Source of the DNA: Escherichia coli
Lineage (GTDB): Bacteria > Pseudomonadota > Gammaproteobacteria > Enterobacterales > Enterobacteriaceae
Reading direction: 5' to 3' (one strand)
NCBI RefSeq assembly: GCF_041886205.1
Contig: NZ_CP169029.1
DNA length: 64,000 nt
Every line of letters begins with the position of its first letter. Position 1 is the first letter of the stretch. This document shows positions 34,461 to 41,039 of this stretch, piece after piece. The position numbers and the translations under genes were made by a program. The notes under the pieces were generated by a model, which did not search any database, was not told the origin of the DNA, and saw only the letters and a list, made by a program, of their open reading frames with translations.

Positions 34461-34719
34461 TAGCAATACTCTTCTGATTTTGAGAATTGTGACTTTGGAA
34501 GATTGTAGCGCCAGTCACAGAAAAATGTGATGGTTTTAGTGCCGTTAGCGTAATGTTGAGTGTAAACCCTTAGCGCAGTGAAGCATTTATTAGCTGAACT
34601 ACTGATCGCCAGGAGTGGATGAAAAATCCGCATGACCCCATCGTTGACAACCGCCCCGCTCACCCTTTATTTATAAATGTACTACCTGCGCTAGCGCAGG
34701 CCAGAAGAGGCGCGTTGCC

Positions 34720-34970
34720 CAAGTAACGGTGTTGGAGGAGCCAGTCCTGTGATAACACCTGAGGGGGTGCATCGCCGAGGTGATTGAACGGCTGGCCACG
34801 TTCATCATCGGCTACAGGGGCTGAATCCCCTGGGTTGTCACCAGAAGCGTTCGCAGTCGGGCGTTTCGCAAGTGGTGGAGCACTTCTGGGTGAAAATAGT
34901 AGCGAAGTATCGCTCTGCGCCCACCCGTCTTCCGCTCTTCCCTTGTGCCAAGGCTGAAAATGGATCCCCT
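34720..34970 (+). promoter_or_regulatory. lysC leader containing the lysine riboswitch (L-box)
   Basis: Long structured 5' leader immediately upstream of lysC, the known position of the E. coli lysine riboswitch; boundaries approximate. Confidence 0.6.
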
Positions 34971-34984
34971 GACACGAGGTAGTT

Positions 34985-36334
34985 ATGTCTGAAATTGTTG
35001 TCTCCAAATTTGGCGGTACCAGCGTAGCTGATTTTGACGCCATGAACCGCAGCGCTGATATTGTGCTTTCTGATGCCAACGTGCGTTTAGTAGTCCTCTC
35101 GGCTTCTGCTGGTATCACTAATCTGCTGGTCGCTTTAGCGGAAGGGCTGGAACCTGGCGAGCGATTCGAAAAACTCGACGCAATCCGCAATATCCAGTTT
35201 GCCATTCTGGAACGTCTGCGTTACCCGAACGTTATCCGTGAAGAGATTGAACGTCTGCTGGAGAACATTACTGTTCTGGCAGAAGCGGCGGCGCTGGCAA
35301 CGTCTCCGGCGCTGACAGATGAGCTGGTCAGCCACGGCGAGCTGATGTCGACCCTGCTGTTTGTCGAAATCCTGCGCGAACGCGATGTTCAGGCACAGTG
35401 GTTTGATGTACGTAAAGTGATGCGTACCAACGACCGATTTGGTCGTGCAGAGCCAGATGTAGCCGCGCTGGCGGAACTGGCCGCGCTGCAGCTGCTCCCA
35501 CGCCTCAATGAAGGCTTAGTGATCACCCAGGGATTTATCGGTAGCGAAAATAAAGGTCGTACAACGACGCTTGGCCGTGGAGGCAGCGATTATACGGCAG
35601 CCTTGCTGGCGGAGGCTTTACACGCATCTCGTGTTGATATCTGGACCGACGTCCCGGGCATCTACACCACCGATCCACGCGTGGTTTCCGCAGCAAAACG
35701 CATTGATGAAATCGCGTTTGCCGAAGCGGCAGAGATGGCAACTTTTGGTGCAAAAGTACTGCATCCGGCAACGTTGCTACCCGCAGTACGCAGCGATATC
35801 CCGGTCTTTGTCGGCTCCAGCAAAGACCCACGCGCAGGTGGTACGCTGGTGTGCAATAAAACTGAAAATCCGCCGCTGTTCCGCGCGCTGGCGCTTCGTC
35901 GCAATCAGACTCTGCTCACTTTGCACAGCCTGAATATGCTGCATTCTCGCGGCTTCCTCGCGGAAGTTTTCGGCATCCTCGCGCGGCATAACATTTCGGT
36001 AGACTTAATCACCACGTCAGAAGTGAGCGTGGCATTAACCCTTGATACCACCGGTTCAACCTCCACTGGCGATACGTTGCTGACGCAATCTCTGCTGATG
36101 GAGCTTTCCGCACTGTGCCGGGTGGAGGTGGAAGAAGGTCTGGCGCTGGTCGCGTTGATTGGCAATGACCTGTCAAAAGCCTGCGGCGTTGGCAAAGAGG
36201 TATTCGGCGTACTGGAACCGTTCAACATTCGCATGATTTGTTATGGCGCATCCAGCCATAACCTGTGCTTCCTGGTGCCCGGCGAAGATGCCGAGCAGGT
36301 GGTGCAGAAGCTGCATTTTAATTTGTTTGAGTAA
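34985..36334 (+). CDS. lysC: Lysine-sensitive aspartokinase III
   Basis: 449-aa translation MSEIVVSKFGGTSVADFDAMNRSADIVLSD... matches LysC. Confidence 0.97.
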   Translation: MSEIVVSKFGGTSVADFDAMNRSADIVLSDANVRLVVLSASAGITNLLVALAEGLEPGERFEKLDAIRNIQFAILERLRYPNVIREEIERLLENITVLAEAAALATSPALTDELVSHGELMSTLLFVEILRERDVQAQWFDVRKVMRTNDRFGRAEPDVAALAELAALQLLPRLNEGLVITQGFIGSENKGRTTTLGRGGSDYTAALLAEALHASRVDIWTDVPGIYTTDPRVVSAAKRIDEIAFAEAAEMATFGAKVLHPATLLPAVRSDIPVFVGSSKDPRAGGTLVCNKTENPPLFRALALRRNQTLLTLHSLNMLHSRGFLAEVFGILARHNISVDLITTSEVSVALTLDTTGSTSTGDTLLTQSLLMELSALCRVEVEEGLALVALIGNDLSKACGVGKEVFGVLEPFNIRMICYGASSHNLCFLVPGEDAEQVVQKLHFNLFE

Positions 36335-36478
36335 TATTTCCCTACTGGCGTATAACGCTCACCAATTGTTATACGCCATCCTCACTGAAAATATAGATTA
36401 AATAATATCTGAAAAATAAAATCACTCCTGTAGAACAGTATTATAATCACCGAAAAATATTATTTAACAGGAGTGTTA

Positions 36479-37405
36479 ATGGCTACTTTAATGGAAAAAG
36501 ATGCACTTTTAAATGGCACCAGTCAGTGCATCGCGTTTTTATCAAATATCGTTGATAATTGCTCAGTTTCGTCACGTCAGGATTCAGGCGATGATCTCAC
36601 ACGATTAGTCAGCTATCGCGATTATCTTTACTCTACCCCCGCTGAACTTGTTGATTTTACACAGGGAAAGAGTCACCTTCAGCAGATTAGAACTCAATAT
36701 CAGCATGAATTCAACAATACTACGCATTCAGAAAATAAAGCATCTTTTGATTCTATTTGGCAGCGTCTGACAAATCATGAAGTCACACCGCAACAGCATC
36801 CCATTGGTTTTGTTTTAGGTGGGCAACCCGGAGCAGGTAAATCATCTCTGATTGAATTAGCCAAAAGAGAGACAAAAGATAATATAATGATTATTAACGG
36901 TGATGATTTTCGATTTCTACACCCTGATTTTAATTATATCTACCAAAATTATGGGGATGATTTTGTTACCCATACAGCGAAATTTTCCGGCGAAACGGTC
37001 GAACGTGCAATTGAGAGAGCGATAGTCAGTAAACTCAACATTGTTGTCGAAGGAACATTTCGTAATGCCGCTACGCCGTTACAAACATTAAAAAAACTCA
37101 AAGATGCAGGCTACCAAACAGAAGTCATGATAAAAACAACCTCAGCGGCATTAAGCTGGGAAAGCACCAATGAACGGTATAATAAGGACAAAGAGGCGGG
37201 AAATATTGCCCGAAAAGTGGATAAAAACCACCATGATATCGTCACCGGTTTGCTGGCAGAAAATGCCCGCAAGGTGTTTGCTTCGAACCTGTCAGATAAG
37301 TTTGCGGTGTATTCGCGTGAGAAGATGATATTTAGTTCACAAGCGGCAACGAATGACGATATTGCAACGCTTATACAGAATGAAATCAGCGGGAATACAC
37401 AATAA
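36479..37405 (+). CDS. Zeta-toxin-family P-loop kinase with N-terminal extension, EzeT-like
   Basis: Walker A GGQPGAGKSS and zeta-type kinase core in the C-terminal two thirds; about 100-aa N-terminal extension; AGGAG SD 6 nt before ATG 36479; AT-rich. Confidence 0.6.
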   Translation: MATLMEKDALLNGTSQCIAFLSNIVDNCSVSSRQDSGDDLTRLVSYRDYLYSTPAELVDFTQGKSHLQQIRTQYQHEFNNTTHSENKASFDSIWQRLTNHEVTPQQHPIGFVLGGQPGAGKSSLIELAKRETKDNIMIINGDDFRFLHPDFNYIYQNYGDDFVTHTAKFSGETVERAIERAIVSKLNIVVEGTFRNAATPLQTLKKLKDAGYQTEVMIKTTSAALSWESTNERYNKDKEAGNIARKVDKNHHDIVTGLLAENARKVFASNLSDKFAVYSREKMIFSSQAATNDDIATLIQNEISGNTQ

Positions 37406-37440
37406 TAATAAGAGCTGATGGCGTGAAATAACGCCGGGCA

Positions 37441-38232
37441 TCACGCCCGGCGCATTACCGTCTGGTACATTAAGCTATCCAGTTCCTTAACGTCCCCTTC
37501 TCTGCTATCCGGTAACAGCGGTGGAATTTCCCCACGCGCCAGTTCCGCACGAATAAACGCATGTAACAATGGACGGCGCGGACCATATTCCGCTTCTCCT
37601 GCGCGCTGTTTACGTCCCAGTAATTCGTCTATTTCTGCACGTAACGGCGCATCAAGTTCACTTCCCGCCAGTAGCTCAGCAAAGCGCATTGGCGGCACGC
37701 CTTTTCCCGCTTCGACCCAGCGCACGGCCAGCAGCGGACGCAGCACGTAAAAGTATTTTTTCAGTCGAACTTCATCGCCCTGCAAATATCCGCGGAAGTT
37801 TTTCTGCGCCATCGAATAGTAATGCCAGCGCGCACGCAGCGGAGAAAACCACATTGGGACCATTGCCTTAAGCGCCGTTATCGTTTCTTCATCTTGTTGA
37901 TAGACCACCGGAGAATCCAGCCATTCTATCAGCGTCGGGTTCGCGCCTTTCAATAATCCCAGCGCCTTACGCCACTCCCAACCGGAAACATCTAACTCGT
38001 CGTCGATGGGCAGCTCGATAACATCGCGCGGCGGCTCCACCCGCAGATACCATTCCAGCGGGTGAACATACAAAAACCGTACATCGTAGTCGCTGTCGGG
38101 CGAGGCAAACCCCCAGCCGCGGCTCCCGGATTCACAGGCATACAGCACTTTCACGCCGTAGCGCCGTTCTATTTCTTTTAACTGCTGCGATACCCGTTCG
38201 CGCATCGCAGCACTGACTCCATTTAATGGCAT
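37441..38232 (-). CDS. Nucleotidyltransferase-fold protein (COG3541/PF10127-like)
   Basis: Pol-beta-type NTase motif GSRGWGFASPDSDYDV; ATG 38232 with AAGGG SD, 5 nt after the upstream gene stop. Confidence 0.6.
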   Translation of the reverse strand: MPLNGVSAAMRERVSQQLKEIERRYGVKVLYACESGSRGWGFASPDSDYDVRFLYVHPLEWYLRVEPPRDVIELPIDDELDVSGWEWRKALGLLKGANPTLIEWLDSPVVYQQDEETITALKAMVPMWFSPLRARWHYYSMAQKNFRGYLQGDEVRLKKYFYVLRPLLAVRWVEAGKGVPPMRFAELLAGSELDAPLRAEIDELLGRKQRAGEAEYGPRRPLLHAFIRAELARGEIPPLLPDSREGDVKELDSLMYQTVMRRA

Positions 38233-38237
38233 GTTAC

Positions 38238-39365
38238 TCACCCTTTGATATTAACCAACCCATGCAGAACCTGATCCAGACCGCCAAATACAGAGATGTT
38301 ATCGATCCGCTCAGCCACTCTCTCCAGCGTTTCTAGCTCTTTTAAACGCAACGCTACCGGATTGTTCTCCATGACTTTGGCGGTGTTCAGTAACGAGCGC
38401 GTCGCTGCCGTTTCTTCACGTCGGCGAATCACATTCGCCTGCGCAGATTTCTCCGCCTCAACCAGCTGCGCAAGGATATTTTTCATATCGCCAGGCAGGA
38501 CGATATCTTTCACCCCTAATGAAGCAATCTCCATACCAAATGGCAACATGCGCGATTTCACCTGTTCGCTGACAACGTCATCAATGACCTGTTTATCTTC
38601 CAGCAGTTCATCCAGCGTACGAGTACCTACCGCTTCACGCAGGGCAAATTGCAATTCCCGATACAAATGATCAATCGGCTTCGTTAACTGACTAAATGCT
38701 AATAACACGTCGCTGTAGCGCCAGTTAGCCGCGAGGTTAATCCGCAGATTGACCTTATCTTTCGTTAAGATTTCTTGCCCGCTGACTTCCAGTACCTGCA
38801 AGCGGGTGTCAACCACTTCAGTTTCAACCAGATGGTTAATTTTCCAGTACGCGGTAAGCCCCGGCGGTAACAGCGCCTGCGTTTCACCATCGATTTTCAG
38901 CACGCCTACATGCCAGGCCGGAACCTGCACCGTCAGTATCGCATCGCGGCCTTTAACAACTCCTTTGCGCCGTGGCTGTAATACCGCATTCATCACCTCC
39001 GTTTGTACCGGGACTTGCTGCGTATTCATCCGCACCAGCGTCAAATCATCCTCTACACGCCAGTACAAACGACGCGTTGATGGCAGCAGGATCTCCAGCA
39101 AAATACCGTCCATATACAACGCCCCGGCTTCAGTCTCCGACAAGTCTGCCACCAGGCAATATTTCTCCACCCAATCAGGCTGAAAGCGGCGCAAATAGTC
39201 CGCCAGCACGTCGGGAACTTCGCTACCATCCAGCGTAATCAGCAACACTTCCGGGGTATTAAACCAGGGTAAAAAATGCTCGCCTGCATGTAGCACTTTG
39301 TAGTAATCGCCGTTTCTGGAGAGTAATGCCAGCTGATCTTTTCTTACGCTTATTTTTTTAATCAT
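38238..39365 (-). CDS. SPFH/band-7 (stomatin/slipin-like) domain protein
   Basis: C-terminal half has the SPFH pattern (VNLRINLAANWRY...TLDELLEDKQVI...GMEIASLGVKDIVLPGDMKNILAQLVEAEK...); no obvious N-terminal TM segment. Confidence 0.6.
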   Translation of the reverse strand: MIKKISVRKDQLALLSRNGDYYKVLHAGEHFLPWFNTPEVLLITLDGSEVPDVLADYLRRFQPDWVEKYCLVADLSETEAGALYMDGILLEILLPSTRRLYWRVEDDLTLVRMNTQQVPVQTEVMNAVLQPRRKGVVKGRDAILTVQVPAWHVGVLKIDGETQALLPPGLTAYWKINHLVETEVVDTRLQVLEVSGQEILTKDKVNLRINLAANWRYSDVLLAFSQLTKPIDHLYRELQFALREAVGTRTLDELLEDKQVIDDVVSEQVKSRMLPFGMEIASLGVKDIVLPGDMKNILAQLVEAEKSAQANVIRRREETAATRSLLNTAKVMENNPVALRLKELETLERVAERIDNISVFGGLDQVLHGLVNIKG

Positions 39366-39893
39366 TATCTATTCCTTGCTTAACAGCCGTCGCGGAAGCA
39401 GACACGAAGCGACAGGGGAATTCCCTTTTGCCTGTTACCCGGCGTCTTTATCGGCGACGTTATCGGGGATCGCTGACTGCGCAATCCCTCATTTTTTATT
39501 TAATAAGTTACAACCAGTATTCATTTCAGGAATGAATGTGGGAATCGAACCCATAATTGGCGTCAAAGGCTGACGGAACACGCCCGGAAAACAGCCTGAC
39601 CGTTCCTGGTGTGCCGACGGGGTTTAACCCCCTTTGAAATTCAGTTTCAACGCATAGGAGTTATTGCGAGAATCGTGCCAGAAGTAAAAAAAACACCTAA
39701 TCAAATGAAAAATAAAGATTTAATAAATTATTGTTTTTTATTGGGGGAAAACTTTTCGCTAAATTTGTATCTGTATTTATCATCAATTATCAAGAAAGAT
39801 AAATATTTCAGAAGAGAATAAAGGAATATTATCAGTTCTGCTTGCAAATGAATTCCCGTACACTGAATCCATCGGCTCACTGAGGGCACCATC

Positions 39894-40166
39894 ATGGCAC
39901 TCCCCCGTATTACCCAAAAAGAGATGACTGAACGCGAGCAGCGTGAACTTAAAACACTGCTGGATCGGGCGCGGATTGCGCATGGTCGCGTACTGACCAA
40001 CTCCGAAACCAACAGCATTAAGAAAGAGTACATCGATAAATTAATGGTTGAGCGTGAGGCTGAAGCAAAAAAAGCCCGCCAATTGAAGAAAAAGCAGGCT
40101 TATAAACCGGATCCTGAAGCGTCATTTAGCTGGTCAGCAAATACGTCGACGCGCGGCAGGCGCTGA
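39894..40166 (+). CDS. yjbD: YjbD (DUF3811 family)
   Basis: 90-aa translation MALPRITQKEMTEREQRELKTLLDRARIAHGRVLTNSETNSIKK... matches YjbD. Confidence 0.9.
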   Translation: MALPRITQKEMTEREQRELKTLLDRARIAHGRVLTNSETNSIKKEYIDKLMVEREAEAKKARQLKKKQAYKPDPEASFSWSANTSTRGRR

Positions 40167-41039
40167 TTAGCGCCCCTTCTTTTTTCGCCCCGGCGAGGTA
40201 AAACGCTTACCGTTGGACGCCGGGCGACCGCCTTTTTCCGCCGTTTTTTCCATCTTAACGACTGGGCGTTTGATGCCCGCCGTTTTCGGTTTGGCCTTCG
40301 CTTTAGGTTTTGCCTCGGAAGAGGAATTTTCGATGAGTTTAAAGAGGTCGATTAACTCATCGTCAGTTAAATCGCGCCACTCACCCAGCGGAATGCCGCT
40401 TAAACTGACGTTCATAATGCGCGTACGTTCCAGCTTTTTCACTTCGTAACCAAAGTGCTCGCACATGCGACGGATCTGACGGTTCAGCCCCTGCACCAGG
40501 GTAATGCGGAAGACAAACGGCGCTTCTTTTTTGACTTTGCACTTTTTCGTCACCGTCCCGAGGATCGGCACTCCCGCCCCCATACCACGAATAAATTCAT
40601 CGGTAATCGGTTTATCGACCGTCACCAGATACTCTTTCTCATGATCGTTACCCGCACGGAGGATCTTATTCACCAGATCGCCGTGATTGGTGAGGAAAAT
40701 CAGCCCCTGGGAGTCTTTATCCAGGCGGCCAATCGGGAACACGCGTTTGCTGTGGTTAACGAAATCGACAATGTTATCGCGCTCGCCATCTTCGGTGGTG
40801 CTGACAATACCGACGGGCTTGTTCAGGGCGATAAGTACCAAATCTTCGGCTTCCCGAGGCTCAATCAACTGACCGTTTACTTTCACAACGTCGCCGGGTT
40901 TCACCTGATCGCCAATGGTGGCTCGCTTGCCATTAAGGAACACATTGCCTTGCTCGATATAGCGATCCGCTTCGCGGCGTGAGCAAATTCCGCTTTCGCT
41001 GATGTATTTATTTAAACGGACTGATGAGTCGGGCAGCAT
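40167..41039 (-). CDS. rluF: 23S rRNA pseudouridine synthase F
   Basis: 290-aa translation matches RluF. Confidence 0.93.

What the first reader, a model, noticed from the sequence alone, without database searches (positions are those of the whole stretch)
36335..39893. About 3.5-kb accessory islet between lysC and yjbD, with a tRNA T-arm-like motif at its right border
lysC and yjbD are adjacent in K-12 as I recall it; here three extra genes intervene. Within the right-hand non-coding flank the minus strand reads ...TGGGTTCGATTCCCA..., a T-arm-like stem-loop (GGTTCGATTCC), but without an acceptor stem or CCA. This could be a relic of a tRNA-like attachment site or a coincidence.
Basis: partly seen in the sequence, partly recalled or inferred. 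Interest (0 to 1): 0.35.

Follow-up and report, generated by a model that had tools for sequence, protein, structure and literature searches.

The report
tRNA-like leader of RNA-repair remnant
The extra genes between lysC and yjbD are mostly the trimmed remains of an ancestral RNA-repair operon rather than an inserted island, and the tRNA-like motif is the conserved T-arm of that operon's structured leader RNA, not a phage attachment site or a coincidence.

Summary
Three genes (zeta-toxin-family kinase, RlaP nucleotidyltransferase, Band-7/slipin) lie between lysC and yjbD, and TGGGTTCGATTCCCA is on the minus strand at 39539-39553.

- **Ancestral locus.** Slipin and rlaP occupy this same yjbD/lysC position in at least nine other Enterobacteriaceae genera. 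There they form an RtcR/sigma-54 RNA-repair operon: rtcR, leader, slipin, (rtcB), rlaP.
- **What Escherichia changed.** It lost rtcR and rtcB here and gained the zeta gene. K-12-type strains later deleted the rest but keep a 22/25-nt relic of the leader.
- **No island signatures.** There is no integrase, no flanking direct repeat and no tRNA gene.
- **The motif is real.** GGTTCGANTCC lies upstream of slipin, on its strand, in 73 of 75 homologous loci. Its stem covaries.
- **What it belongs to.** In Enterobacterales it sits in a roughly 290-nt covarying leader behind a GG-N10-GC sigma-54 promoter. The leader is absent from Rfam and unannotated in RefSeq.
- **Its form.** The E. coli version looks like a circularly permuted mini-tRNA.

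The closest known thing is the predicted, never validated "band-7-associated tRNA" of Burroughs and Aravind. About 30% of complete E. coli genomes carry the leader, under purifying selection.

The parts
36335..36478 (+). lysC-proximal spacer and zeta upstream region. Holds an 11-bp perfect hairpin (36346-36378). Similarity to K-12 stops exactly after the lysC stop codon.
36479..37405 (+). Zeta-toxin-family P-loop kinase gene (308 aa) with an 80-100 aa N-terminal extension and no adjacent antitoxin ORF. This is the only part that is an Escherichia-specific addition at this site.
   Evidence: Pfam PF06414 at E 1.5e-40. PezT 2p5t at E 5e-33. Absent from this position in all other genera. Nearest non-E. 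coli relatives are plasmid zeta toxins at 40-42% identity. dN/dS 0.135.
37433..37451 (.). GC-rich hairpin GCCGGGCATCACGCCCGGC between the convergent zeta and rlaP genes. Probably a bidirectional terminator. It overlaps the last codons of rlaP, which ends at 37441.
37441..38232 (-). rlaP, an RNA-ligase-associated Pol-beta nucleotidyltransferase. Its ATG lies 5 nt after the slipin stop.
   Evidence: Pfam PF10127 at E 3.4e-95. dN/dS 0.069. Biochemistry of homologues: PMC12776372. Start checked.
38238..39365 (-). Band-7/SPFH (slipin-family) gene, 375 aa. It has a 145-aa N-terminal region of unknown fold and no predicted transmembrane helix.
   Evidence: Pfam PF01145. Stomatin structures. Kyte-Doolittle maximum 1.13. 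dN/dS 0.037.
39366..39654 (-). Structured leader RNA of about 290 nt, from the inferred sigma-54 start to the slipin ATG.
   Evidence: 15-genus alignment A1 with covariation: 95.3% of cells paired against 40-54% in slid controls, and 17 compensatory pairs against 3-7. 94.9% identical between E. coli and Escherichia sp. although neighbouring dS is about 0.5.
39387..39459 (-). 3' domain of the leader (long-range helices H7-H9). Includes the stretch 39432-39456 that survives, 22/25 identical, in the K-12 lysC-yjbD spacer.
39465..39490 (-). Leader hairpin H6 (GAGGGAU...AUCCCC), with 5 of 6 pairs showing compensatory change.
39510..39518 (-). D-loop-like unit ACUGGUUGU that directly follows the hairpin's 3' arm.
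   Evidence: ACUGG is invariant or nearly so in A1/A3. The same A-N-U-GGU unit sits at -16 of the T loop in the tRNA-order mini-elements of other taxa.
39519..39537 (-). Acceptor-like hairpin ATTCATT-CCTGA-AATGAAT immediately 3' of the T arm.
   Evidence: Present in all 17 E. coli-type leaders with six or more different stem sequences.
39539..39553 (-). T arm: UGGG-UUCGAUU-CCCA. This is the motif in the finding.
39568..39646 (-). 5' domain of the leader. Helix CUGA/UCAG encloses the hairpin GGGG-UUAAA-CCCC and a long bulged hairpin CGGCAC...GUGUUCCG.
39665..39680 (-). Sigma-54-type promoter TGGCACGATTCTCGCA (GG-N10-GC), 315 nt upstream of the slipin ATG.
   Evidence: Two matches in the 64-kb window against 0.22 expected. 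The corresponding position is TGGCAC-N5-TGGCA in other genera. The K-12 rtcBA promoter is TTCTGGCACGACGGTTGCAAT. No sigma-70-like site upstream of slipin.
39768..39803 (-). TTATC/GATAA-rich repeats. Possibly a remnant of the rtcR-proximal enhancer region. Tentative.
   Evidence: MAFFT alignment A2. Local-alignment z-scores range only from 0.3 to 5.5 depending on the relative.

Best explanation
The interval is the trimmed remnant of an ancestral Enterobacteriaceae RNA-repair operon of the Band-7 type. That operon runs rtcR (divergent), sigma-54 promoter, structured leader RNA with a tRNA-like module, Band-7/slipin, rtcB, rlaP, and sits between yjbD and lysC.

In Escherichia the local rtcR (together with a neighbouring transporter gene) and rtcB were lost. 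A zeta-toxin-family gene was added next to lysC. K-12-type strains then deleted almost everything else.

The 'T-arm-like motif' is the T arm of the leader's tRNA-mimicking module. In E. coli the module has the order T arm, acceptor-like hairpin, D-loop-like ACUGGUUGU. This is a circular permutation of the acceptor/D-loop/T-arm 'mini-tRNA' found in other Enterobacterales and beta-proteobacteria.

Proposed working, inferred rather than shown:
1. tRNA damage activates RtcR, which is encoded in trans at the rtcR-rtcBA locus.
2. RtcR drives the sigma-54 promoter at 39665-39680.
3. The transcript yields the structured leader plus slipin and RlaP.
4. The tRNA-like module is recognised, and perhaps processed and modified, like a tRNA. 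It acts with a soluble Band-7 oligomer as a cofactor, scaffold or decoy.
5. RlaP adds 1-2 nucleotides to damaged RNA 3' ends, and the trans-encoded RtcB seals them.
For: SHOWN:
- Synteny of yjbD-(BASS)-rtcR-slipin-(rtcB)-rlaP-lysC-pgi in nine other genera.
- The local regulator is 61% identical to E. coli RtcR and the local ligase 73% identical to E. coli RtcB.
- The T-loop motif is upstream of slipin in 73 of 75 loci, against a background of 0.008 per 700 nt. The 5-bp T stem covaries: GGG/CCC, CAGG/CCTG, GTAGG/CCTAC, TGCGG/CCGCA.
- In beta- and gamma-proteobacterial loci ARAGORN and the Rfam tRNA model call a cloverleaf tRNA-like gene at this position.
- The enterobacterial leader shows covariation.
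- A covariance model built from 15 leaders finds untrained homologues only immediately upstream of slipin in 10 further genera. It finds a single strong hit in the window.
- A sigma-54 promoter motif resembling the rtcBA promoter is present.
- There is purifying selection on slipin, rlaP and zeta, and on the leader.
- IAI1, which carries the leader, has an intact rtcR-rtcBA. Full-length rtcR is in 4838 of 5426 genomes.
- K-12 retains a 22/25-nt collinear relic.

FROM THE LITERATURE:
- A band-7-associated tRNA next to RtcB was predicted by Burroughs and Aravind 2016, as quoted in bioRxiv 10.1101/312249.
- RlaP adds 1-2 NMP to RNA 3'-OH (PMC12776372).
- RtcR is activated by tRNA halves ending in a cyclic phosphate (PMC7790460).
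- P. aeruginosa has an SPFH gene inside its rtc locus (PMC13086221).
Against: - No expression data. Transcription, RtcR dependence and processing are all inferred.
- E. coli lacks the adjacent rtcR and rtcB, so the cassette could be orphaned.
- The E. coli T stem is only 3-4 bp, and neither ARAGORN nor Rfam sees a tRNA.
- The single-sequence fold z-score is modest, -1.8.
- Homology of the presumed enhancer region is weak.
- The permutation model rests on motif order and on hairpin covariation in related sequences, which are not independent events.
- I could not read the primary paper, so I do not know whether enterobacterial leaders were already included in its b7a-tRNA set.
- Only 80 of 568 candidate loci were returned, so absence from Salmonella and other genera is not established.
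Confidence: 0.75

Rival explanations
1. An integrative accessory islet inserted between lysC and yjbD, with the T-arm motif as a relic of a tRNA-like attachment site.
For: The interval is missing from about 70% of E. coli genomes, including K-12 and Sakai. The lysC-rlaP slot does hold alternative cargo: the zeta gene here, and a 15.7-kb Mu-like tail cluster in strain 24AR0376.
Against: There is no integrase, no flanking direct repeat and no tRNA gene. Slipin and rlaP are syntenic at this site in nine other genera. The motif lies 190 nt inside a conserved transcribed leader rather than at a boundary, and is conserved in 73 of 75 loci whatever their flanks. K-12 retains a relic of the leader.
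Confidence: 0.03
2. Chance occurrence of a T-loop-like 11-mer in non-coding DNA.
For: The exact 11-mer appears in 6 of 100 shuffled windows. There is no cloverleaf.
Against: The motif is present at the corresponding position in 73 of 75 homologous loci, with a covarying stem.
Confidence: 0.01
3. A dead relic. The ancestry is as described, but in Escherichia the cassette is no longer expressed or useful since it lost rtcR and rtcB, and it is simply on its way to deletion, as in K-12.
For: The local rtcR and rtcB are lost. About 70% of E. coli have deleted it. The T stem is shortened to 3-4 bp. An IS1 insertion occurs in PT62 and a replacement of the zeta side in other strains.
Against: The ORFs are intact, with dN/dS of 0.04-0.14 across a dS of about 0.5. 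The leader is 94.9% conserved over the same divergence. The sigma-54 core is conserved between E. coli and Escherichia sp.. The same permuted leader serves intact operons in Phytobacter and Pluralibacter. Slipin-rlaP without rtcB recurs in Citrobacter, Klebsiella, Hafnia, Mangrovibacter and Lonsdalea. RtcR and RtcB are available in trans.
Confidence: 0.15
4. A cis-acting regulatory leader. The structured 5' UTR, including the tRNA-like hairpins, senses a ligand, protein or damaged RNA and controls slipin/rlaP translation or mRNA stability. It does not release a stable trans-acting tRNA-like RNA.
For: The whole 290 nt up to the Shine-Dalgarno sequence is conserved and covarying. The 3' domain ends about 10 nt upstream of the SD. 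No terminator or obvious processing signal separates the module from the ORF.
Against: In distant relatives the same position holds complete tRNA-like genes. It also holds mini-tRNAs ending in NCCA directly abutting a second tRNA-like gene, an arrangement typical of RNase P/Z-processed stable RNAs. The Y RNAs of the related Salmonella rsr-yrlBA-rtcBA operon, which is under RtcR control, are stable RNAs, and M. smegmatis YrlA/YrlB are processed from a single precursor (PMC4201824).
Confidence: 0.3

Closest known systems
[quoted passage not shown] Predicted by Burroughs and Aravind, NAR 2016, as quoted in bioRxiv 10.1101/312249.
   Same: A tRNA-like element lies immediately upstream of, and on the same strand as, a Band-7/SPFH gene belonging to an RtcR/RtcB/RlaP gene neighbourhood. 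The T loop is canonical. In distant homologous loci fetched here the element is a full cloverleaf that ARAGORN and the Rfam tRNA model recognise.
   Different: The E. coli and enterobacterial element is not a cloverleaf. It has a T arm, an acceptor-like hairpin and a D-loop-like strand, embedded in a 290-nt structured leader. In the E. coli group it is circularly permuted. RtcB and RtcR are missing from the E. coli locus. Neither form has been validated experimentally, and neither is in Rfam 15.
YrlA, the tRNA-like Y RNA of the Salmonella rsr-yrlBA-rtcBA operon (Chen et al. 2014, PMC4201824).
   Same: It is encoded inside an RtcR/sigma-54-controlled RNA-repair operon. The module order is T arm, then acceptor-like stem-loop, then D element, the same permuted order as here. 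The T loop is conserved.
   Different: There is no Ro60/Rsr gene at the locus and no GNCGAAN0-1G Ro-binding motif. No D stem is present, and no terminal stem formed by the 5' and 3' ends was identified. The partner protein is Band-7 instead of Ro60.
E. coli rtcR-rtcBA operon (Genschik 1998; Hughes 2020, PMC7790460).
   Same: The sigma-54 promoter core is nearly the same: TTCTGGCACGA...T(T/C)GCAAT. Relatives of this locus carry RtcR (61% identical) and RtcB (73% identical) paralogues.
   Different: rtcBA has a short leader without a tRNA-like RNA, and the covariance model finds nothing there. It has no Band-7 or RlaP. The window locus has no rtcR, rtcB or rtcA.
Zeta/PezT toxins of type II toxin-antitoxin systems.
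   Same: The first gene has the zeta-toxin P-loop kinase domain with a GGQPGAGKS Walker A motif.
   Different: There is no epsilon/PezA antitoxin gene next to it and it has an extra 80-100 aa N-terminus. It is chromosomal, single-copy and under purifying selection. No link to the RNA-repair genes appears outside Escherichia.

Membership tests
b7a-tRNA / Band-7-type Rtc RNA-repair operon | tRNA-like element directly upstream of, and co-oriented with, a Band-7/SPFH gene | tested here: met
   T arm at 39539-39553, 186 nt upstream of the slipin ATG on the same strand. The same holds in 73 of 75 homologous loci.
b7a-tRNA / Band-7-type Rtc RNA-repair operon | Element 'strongly resembles an authentic tRNA' (cloverleaf) | tested here: not met
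   ARAGORN gives none. The Rfam tRNA model gives none even at E<=10, only a 15-nt T-arm hit to tmRNA. Distant relatives do meet this feature.
b7a-tRNA / Band-7-type Rtc RNA-repair operon | RtcB ligase gene adjacent | tested here: not met
   There is no RtcB between slipin and rlaP in the window. It is present in Kosakonia, Phytobacter, Proteus, Providencia and others.
b7a-tRNA / Band-7-type Rtc RNA-repair operon | RlaP nucleotidyltransferase in the operon | tested here: met
   PF10127 at E 3.4e-95, starting 5 nt after the slipin stop.
b7a-tRNA / Band-7-type Rtc RNA-repair operon | RtcR/sigma-54 control | tested here: inconclusive
   A GG-N10-GC promoter is present and conserved. The rtcR gene is absent from the locus but present elsewhere in E. 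coli. Dependence was not tested.
YrlA-type bacterial Y RNA | Encoded next to a Ro60/Rsr (TROVE) gene | tested here: not met
   Only zeta, RlaP and Band-7 ORFs lie in the interval.
YrlA-type bacterial Y RNA | GNCGAAN0-1G Ro-binding motif near the 5' end | tested here: not met
   A regex search over the leader finds none.
YrlA-type bacterial Y RNA | Order T stem-loop, acceptor-like stem-loop, D stem-loop | tested here: inconclusive
   The T arm and acceptor-like hairpin are present and the hairpin covaries. The D element is only a loop-like ACUGGUUGU without a stem.
Canonical tRNA gene | Cloverleaf with acceptor stem, D arm, anticodon arm and T arm | tested here: not met
Integrase-mediated genomic island at a tRNA-type att site | Integrase gene, flanking direct repeats and a tRNA (or its 3' part) at a boundary | tested here: not met
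   No integrase ORF. No boundary repeats. The motif is internal to a conserved leader.
Integrase-mediated genomic island at a tRNA-type att site | Content is derived (inserted) relative to outgroups | tested here: not met
   Slipin and rlaP are syntenic in nine other genera. Only the zeta gene is Escherichia-specific.
Zeta/epsilon (PezAT) toxin-antitoxin module | Zeta kinase domain | tested here: met
   PF06414 at E 1.5e-40; PezT 2p5t at E 5e-33.
Zeta/epsilon (PezAT) toxin-antitoxin module | Adjacent upstream antitoxin gene | tested here: not met
   No ORF of 40 aa or more on the + strand lies wholly within 36335-36478.
Known anti-phage defence systems (PADLOC-DB 2.0) | Match to a defence-system protein model | tested here: not met
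   Only one marginal hit, E 0.003, for the zeta protein. None for RlaP or slipin.

The most novel reading that the evidence does not exclude
About 30% of E. coli strains (for example IAI1 and W) carry an unannotated structured RNA of about 290 nt, driven by sigma-54 and RtcR. Its core is a circularly permuted mini-tRNA that arose by tandem duplication and end-trimming of the band-7-associated tRNA-like element. This RNA would work in trans with a soluble SPFH-domain assembly and RlaP as a second, previously unrecognised arm of the E. coli Rtc RNA-repair regulon. That would give the first genetically tractable model for what tRNA mimics do in RNA repair.
Probability: 0.3. Interest if true: 0.7.

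Novelty: new variant of a known kind. Interest (0 to 1): 0.55.

Why it matters
tRNA-like RNAs (YrlA, b7a-tRNA) recur in bacterial RNA-repair operons, but their role is unknown, and b7a-tRNA has never been shown to exist as an RNA.

This analysis shows that many natural E. coli strains carry a conserved, selected version with its own sigma-54 promoter, while RtcR and RtcB are encoded elsewhere. That separates the RNA/Band-7/RlaP part from the ligase in a model organism, so its function and regulation can be tested directly.

It also documents three further points:
- a structured RNA family spanning Enterobacterales that is missing from Rfam and from genome annotation;
- a likely case of circular permutation of a tRNA-like module;
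- that an apparent "islet" relative to K-12 is in fact a K-12 deletion.

Tried and rejected
1. **Attachment-site relic.** Rejected. There is no integrase, no repeats and no tRNA, and the locus is ancestral.
2. **Canonical tRNA or any Rfam family.** Rejected.
3. **YrlA membership.** Rejected for lack of Rsr and of the Ro-binding motif. Only the module order resembles YrlA.
4. **Known defence system.** No PADLOC support.
5. **Origin of the 80 nt private to K-12 after lysC.** No similarity to the islet or to any other genus. The region downstream of lysC differs in every genus.
6. **Enhancer (UAS) homology of 39768-39803 with the rtcR-proximal region.** Only moderate and inconsistent (z 0.3-5.5), so kept as tentative.
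7. **Locating rtcR in strains PG20180050 and PT62 by guessed coordinates.** Failed. It succeeded for MG1655 and IAI1.
8. **Reading the primary paper (Burroughs and Aravind 2016).** It is not held. Its claim is cited second-hand from bioRxiv 10.1101/312249.
9. **Aligning the acceptor-like hairpin with MAFFT.** The alignments put it in two registers, so its covariation was assessed by script, not by the count of structure pairs. It was left out of covariance model R1.

Full report
**1. The observation.**
The window carries pgi (-), a lysine riboswitch at 34697-34893, and lysC at 34985-36334 (+). Three ORFs follow: a zeta-toxin-family protein at 36479-37405 (+), an RlaP/PF10127 nucleotidyltransferase at 37441-38232 (-), and a Band-7/SPFH 'slipin' at 38238-39365 (-). 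Then come 528 nt without a credible ORF, yjbD at 39894-40166 (+) and rluF (-).

K-12 and O157 Sakai have a 252-bp lysC-yjbD spacer instead. The minus strand reads TGGGTTCGATTCCCA at 39553->39539. ARAGORN finds no tRNA there. Rfam finds no family, only a 15-nt local match to the T arm of the tmRNA model at the laxest setting.

**2. Distribution in E. coli and boundaries.**
At least 80% of 35800-40400 is present in 1424 of 5426 complete genomes. The remainder match only the flanks. The 335-nt slipin leader alone is present once, always on the chromosome and always unannotated, in 1631 of 5426 genomes.

Against K-12, similarity stops exactly after the lysC stop codon (36334). It resumes at 39764 at 90% identity, or at about 39737 at lower stringency. 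K-12 has about 95 private nucleotides in between, but these include a collinear 22/25-nt match to 39432-39456.

No direct repeats flank the interval, and there is no integrase, transposase or tRNA gene.

**3. The locus is ancestral.**
A scan of one genome per species with the slipin protein returned 80 loci. Slipin and rlaP lie between yjbD/rluF and lysC/pgi in nine other genera: Citrobacter, Klebsiella michiganensis and oxytoca, Kosakonia, Phytobacter, Siccibacter, Franconibacter, Pluralibacter, Pseudocitrobacter and an Enterobacter sp..

The fuller locus runs yjbD, a bile-acid:sodium-symporter-like gene, a divergent sigma-54 activator, a non-coding stretch of about 470 nt, slipin, a ligase, rlaP, lysC. 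The activator is 61% identical over its full length to E. coli RtcR, and the ligase is 73% identical to E. coli RtcB.

RtcR is divergently adjacent to slipin in every Enterobacterales locus except Escherichia. RtcB has been lost not only in Escherichia but also in Citrobacter, K. oxytoca and michiganensis, Pseudocitrobacter, Mangrovibacter, Hafnia and Lonsdalea/Brenneria. The zeta gene occurs at this site only in Escherichia. Its nearest relatives outside E. coli are plasmid zeta toxins at 40-42% identity.

Together with the relic in K-12, this means the K-12 state is a deletion. Only the zeta gene is an addition.

**4. The motif is conserved, not accidental.**
GGTTC[GA]ANTCC occurs within 700 nt upstream of slipin on the same strand in 73 of 75 loci from gamma- and beta-proteobacteria. 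The background is 0.008 per 700 nt elsewhere in the same loci. The flanking 5-bp stem is kept through compensatory changes.

In Gilliamella, beta-proteobacteria, Methylococcaceae and others, ARAGORN calls tRNA-like genes here, often with unusual anticodons or aberrant anticodon loops. The Rfam tRNA model scores them at 37-58 bits.

[quoted passage not shown] It was predicted by Burroughs and Aravind (2016) next to RtcB and a Band-7 protein and is said to be experimentally unvalidated (bioRxiv 10.1101/312249). I could not obtain the primary paper. Independent support for the gene context comes from two sources. P. aeruginosa has an SPFH gene embedded in its rtc locus (PMC13086221). RlaP lies between rtcB and rtcA in Pseudomonas (PMC12776372).

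**5. Anatomy in Enterobacterales.**
A GG-N10-GC sigma-54 promoter, TGGCACGATTCTCGCA, lies at 39665-39680 (-), 315 nt upstream of the slipin ATG. There are two such matches in the window against 0.22 expected, and the core resembles the K-12 rtcBA promoter. No sigma-70-like site lies upstream of slipin.

The roughly 290 nt downstream of it align across 15 leaders from about eight genera at 66% mean column identity. They support a consensus structure in which 95.3% of cells pair, against 40-54% in slid controls. Seventeen pairs show changes on both sides, against 3-7 in controls, and none of 500 shuffles reaches the covariation score.

The elements are, in order:
- a 5' three-way domain (39568-39646);
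- the T arm (39539-39553);
- a hairpin directly 3' of it (39519-39537);
- a conserved ACUGGUUGU (39510-39518);
- hairpin H6 (39465-39490);
- a 3' domain ending about 10 nt upstream of the Shine-Dalgarno sequence (39387-39459).

A covariance model of the 5' domain plus T arm, built from these 15 sequences, gives one strong hit in the 64-kb window. It finds sequences it was not trained on, always just upstream of slipin, at E of 7e-8 or better in Kosakonia, Enterobacter sp., Siccibacter, Franconibacter, Lonsdalea, Brenneria, Xenorhabdus, Hafnia, Mangrovibacter and Erwinia. It finds weaker hits in Morganella, Providencia, Gilliamella and Proteus. It finds nothing in the K-12 rtc locus or in the empty sites.

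**6. A permuted mini-tRNA (inference).**
In Kosakonia-, Proteus-, Erwinia- and Lonsdalea-type leaders, a 5-7-bp acceptor-like stem encloses a D-loop-like linker and the T arm. Examples of the stem are GCGAA/TTCGC, GCAAA/TTTGC, CAGTG/CACTG and CGATA/TATCG. The linker reads A-N-U-(C)GGU, for example AAGUCGGUU.

The same 'mini-tRNA' occurs in beta-proteobacteria. There it often ends in NCCA and directly abuts a second, full cloverleaf tRNA-like gene.

In the E. coli, Citrobacter, Klebsiella, Phytobacter and Pluralibacter group the upstream strand and linker are absent. Instead the T arm is followed by a hairpin whose stem covaries (ATTCATT/AATGAAT, TTTCAT/ATGAAA, TTCACT/AGTGAA, TCACC/GGTGA, TCACT/AGTGA). 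The D-loop-like ACUGGUUGU follows directly.

The order T arm, acceptor 3' strand, loop, acceptor 5' strand, D-like unit is a circular permutation of the other form. Tandem duplication followed by trimming of both ends would produce it. It is also the order described for YrlA (PMC4201824). However, the leader has no Ro-binding GNCGAAN0-1G motif and the locus has no Rsr gene. The permuted form also serves intact operons that have both RtcR and RtcB in Phytobacter and Pluralibacter, so it is a working variant and not decay.

**7. Is it still in use in E. coli?**
Between the window and Escherichia sp. MOD1-EC7003, dN/dS is 0.037 for slipin, 0.069 for rlaP and 0.135 for zeta, at dS of 0.48-0.61. 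The leader is 94.9% identical over the same divergence, so it evolves several times more slowly than synonymous sites.

Full-length rtcR is present in 4838 of 5426 E. coli genomes. Strain IAI1, which carries the leader, has an intact rtcR-rtcBA locus. The slipin has no predicted transmembrane helix, so it is probably a soluble SPFH assembly.

I therefore favour a live, trans-regulated accessory module of the Rtc response. Transcription, RtcR dependence and RNA processing remain untested inferences. The presumed enhancer remnant at 39768-39803 is only weakly supported.

**8. Verdict.**
The 'islet' is mostly an ancestral operon remnant that K-12 has deleted. The 'T-arm-like motif' is the hallmark of a conserved tRNA-mimicking leader RNA of Band-7-type RNA-repair operons.

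It is a new variant of a predicted but unvalidated kind: non-cloverleaf, apparently permuted, embedded in a large structured leader, and uncoupled from RtcR and RtcB. It is absent from Rfam and from RefSeq annotation. Interest is moderate. The concept is already in the literature, but this places a testable version in E. coli.

Noticed in passing
L089:27905-43589 (E. coli 24AR0376, NZ_CP195347.1), equivalent to window 36335-37426: A third allele of the lysC-rlaP slot. In place of the zeta gene there is a 15.7-kb Mu-like tail cluster: Mor activator, holin, transglycosylase, sheath, tube, tape measure, baseplate and fibres. It has no capsid, terminase or integrase, so it may be a tailocin or a defective prophage. 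About 200 genomes have the slipin leader but less than 80% of the islet, so this or similar alleles may be common.
   Followed up: partly
L004:1068-1765 (E. coli PT62, NZ_CP090448.1), equivalent to window about 36570: The genome closest to the window (100% identity over 35800-40400) differs by an IS1 insertion in the 5' part of the zeta-family ORF. The annotated zeta CDS there is shortened to 291 aa.
   Followed up: no
window 36479-36780 and 36423-36475: The zeta-family protein has an N-terminal extension of about 80-100 aa with no Pfam match and no separate antitoxin gene. A 20-nt imperfect inverted repeat spans its start region. It may be a self-inhibited or repurposed kinase. The AAA_33/PNK-like hit falls below Pfam's gathering cut-off (26.1 against 27 bits, E 1.2e-5).
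   Followed up: partly
window 36479-39365 compared with L006: Synonymous divergence between the window and Escherichia sp. MOD1-EC7003 is 2-3 times higher in the three islet genes (dS 0.48-0.61) than in the flanking lysC, yjbD and rluF (0.17-0.25). This suggests deeper coalescence of the islet alleles, or recombinational homogenisation of the flanks.
   Followed up: no
window 54815-54830 (-): A second match to the sigma-54 pattern, TGGCACATGGATCGCT. It was not examined. With 0.22 matches expected per window it may be chance.
   Followed up: no
L070:2136-3185 (Caenimonas koreensis): An array of 11 Rfam-scored tRNA genes lies about 2.4 kb upstream of the slipin gene, in addition to the tRNA-like gene at 5239-5310 directly upstream of it. 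An RtcB homologue also lies upstream.
   Followed up: no
L058-L062, L070, L076 (beta/gamma-proteobacteria), about -340 to -380 from the slipin start: The upstream 'mini-tRNA' (acceptor stem, D-loop-like linker, T arm) often ends in an encoded NCCA immediately before the 5' end of the full tRNA-like gene. Some versions carry a GNRA-tetraloop hairpin (CUUC-GCAA/GAAA-GAAG) in the linker.
   Followed up: partly
L005 (JAIJJM010000308.1, labelled Collinsella sp. MAG): This 3.7-kb contig encodes slipin, rlaP and zeta at 97-98% amino-acid identity to the E. coli islet, with an identical T arm. It is almost certainly E. coli DNA mis-binned into an actinobacterial MAG.
   Followed up: no
L001:1361-1492 (K-12-type) compared with window 40166/40167: K-12-type genomes have 132 extra bp between the convergent yjbD and rluF genes. 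In the window and in Sakai these genes abut directly. The insert was not examined.
   Followed up: no
PLSDB hits H61 and H62 (NZ_OL790696.1, 4.8 Mb; CP061233.1, 1.0 Mb): Two records in the plasmid collection that carry the zeta gene are chromosome-sized E. coli sequences. They are evidently chromosomes filed as plasmids.
   Followed up: no
window 34697-34893 (+) and 61135-61210 (-): An ordinary lysine riboswitch lies upstream of lysC (99.5 bits). The only genuine tRNA in the window is tRNA-Glu(UUC).
   Followed up: yes
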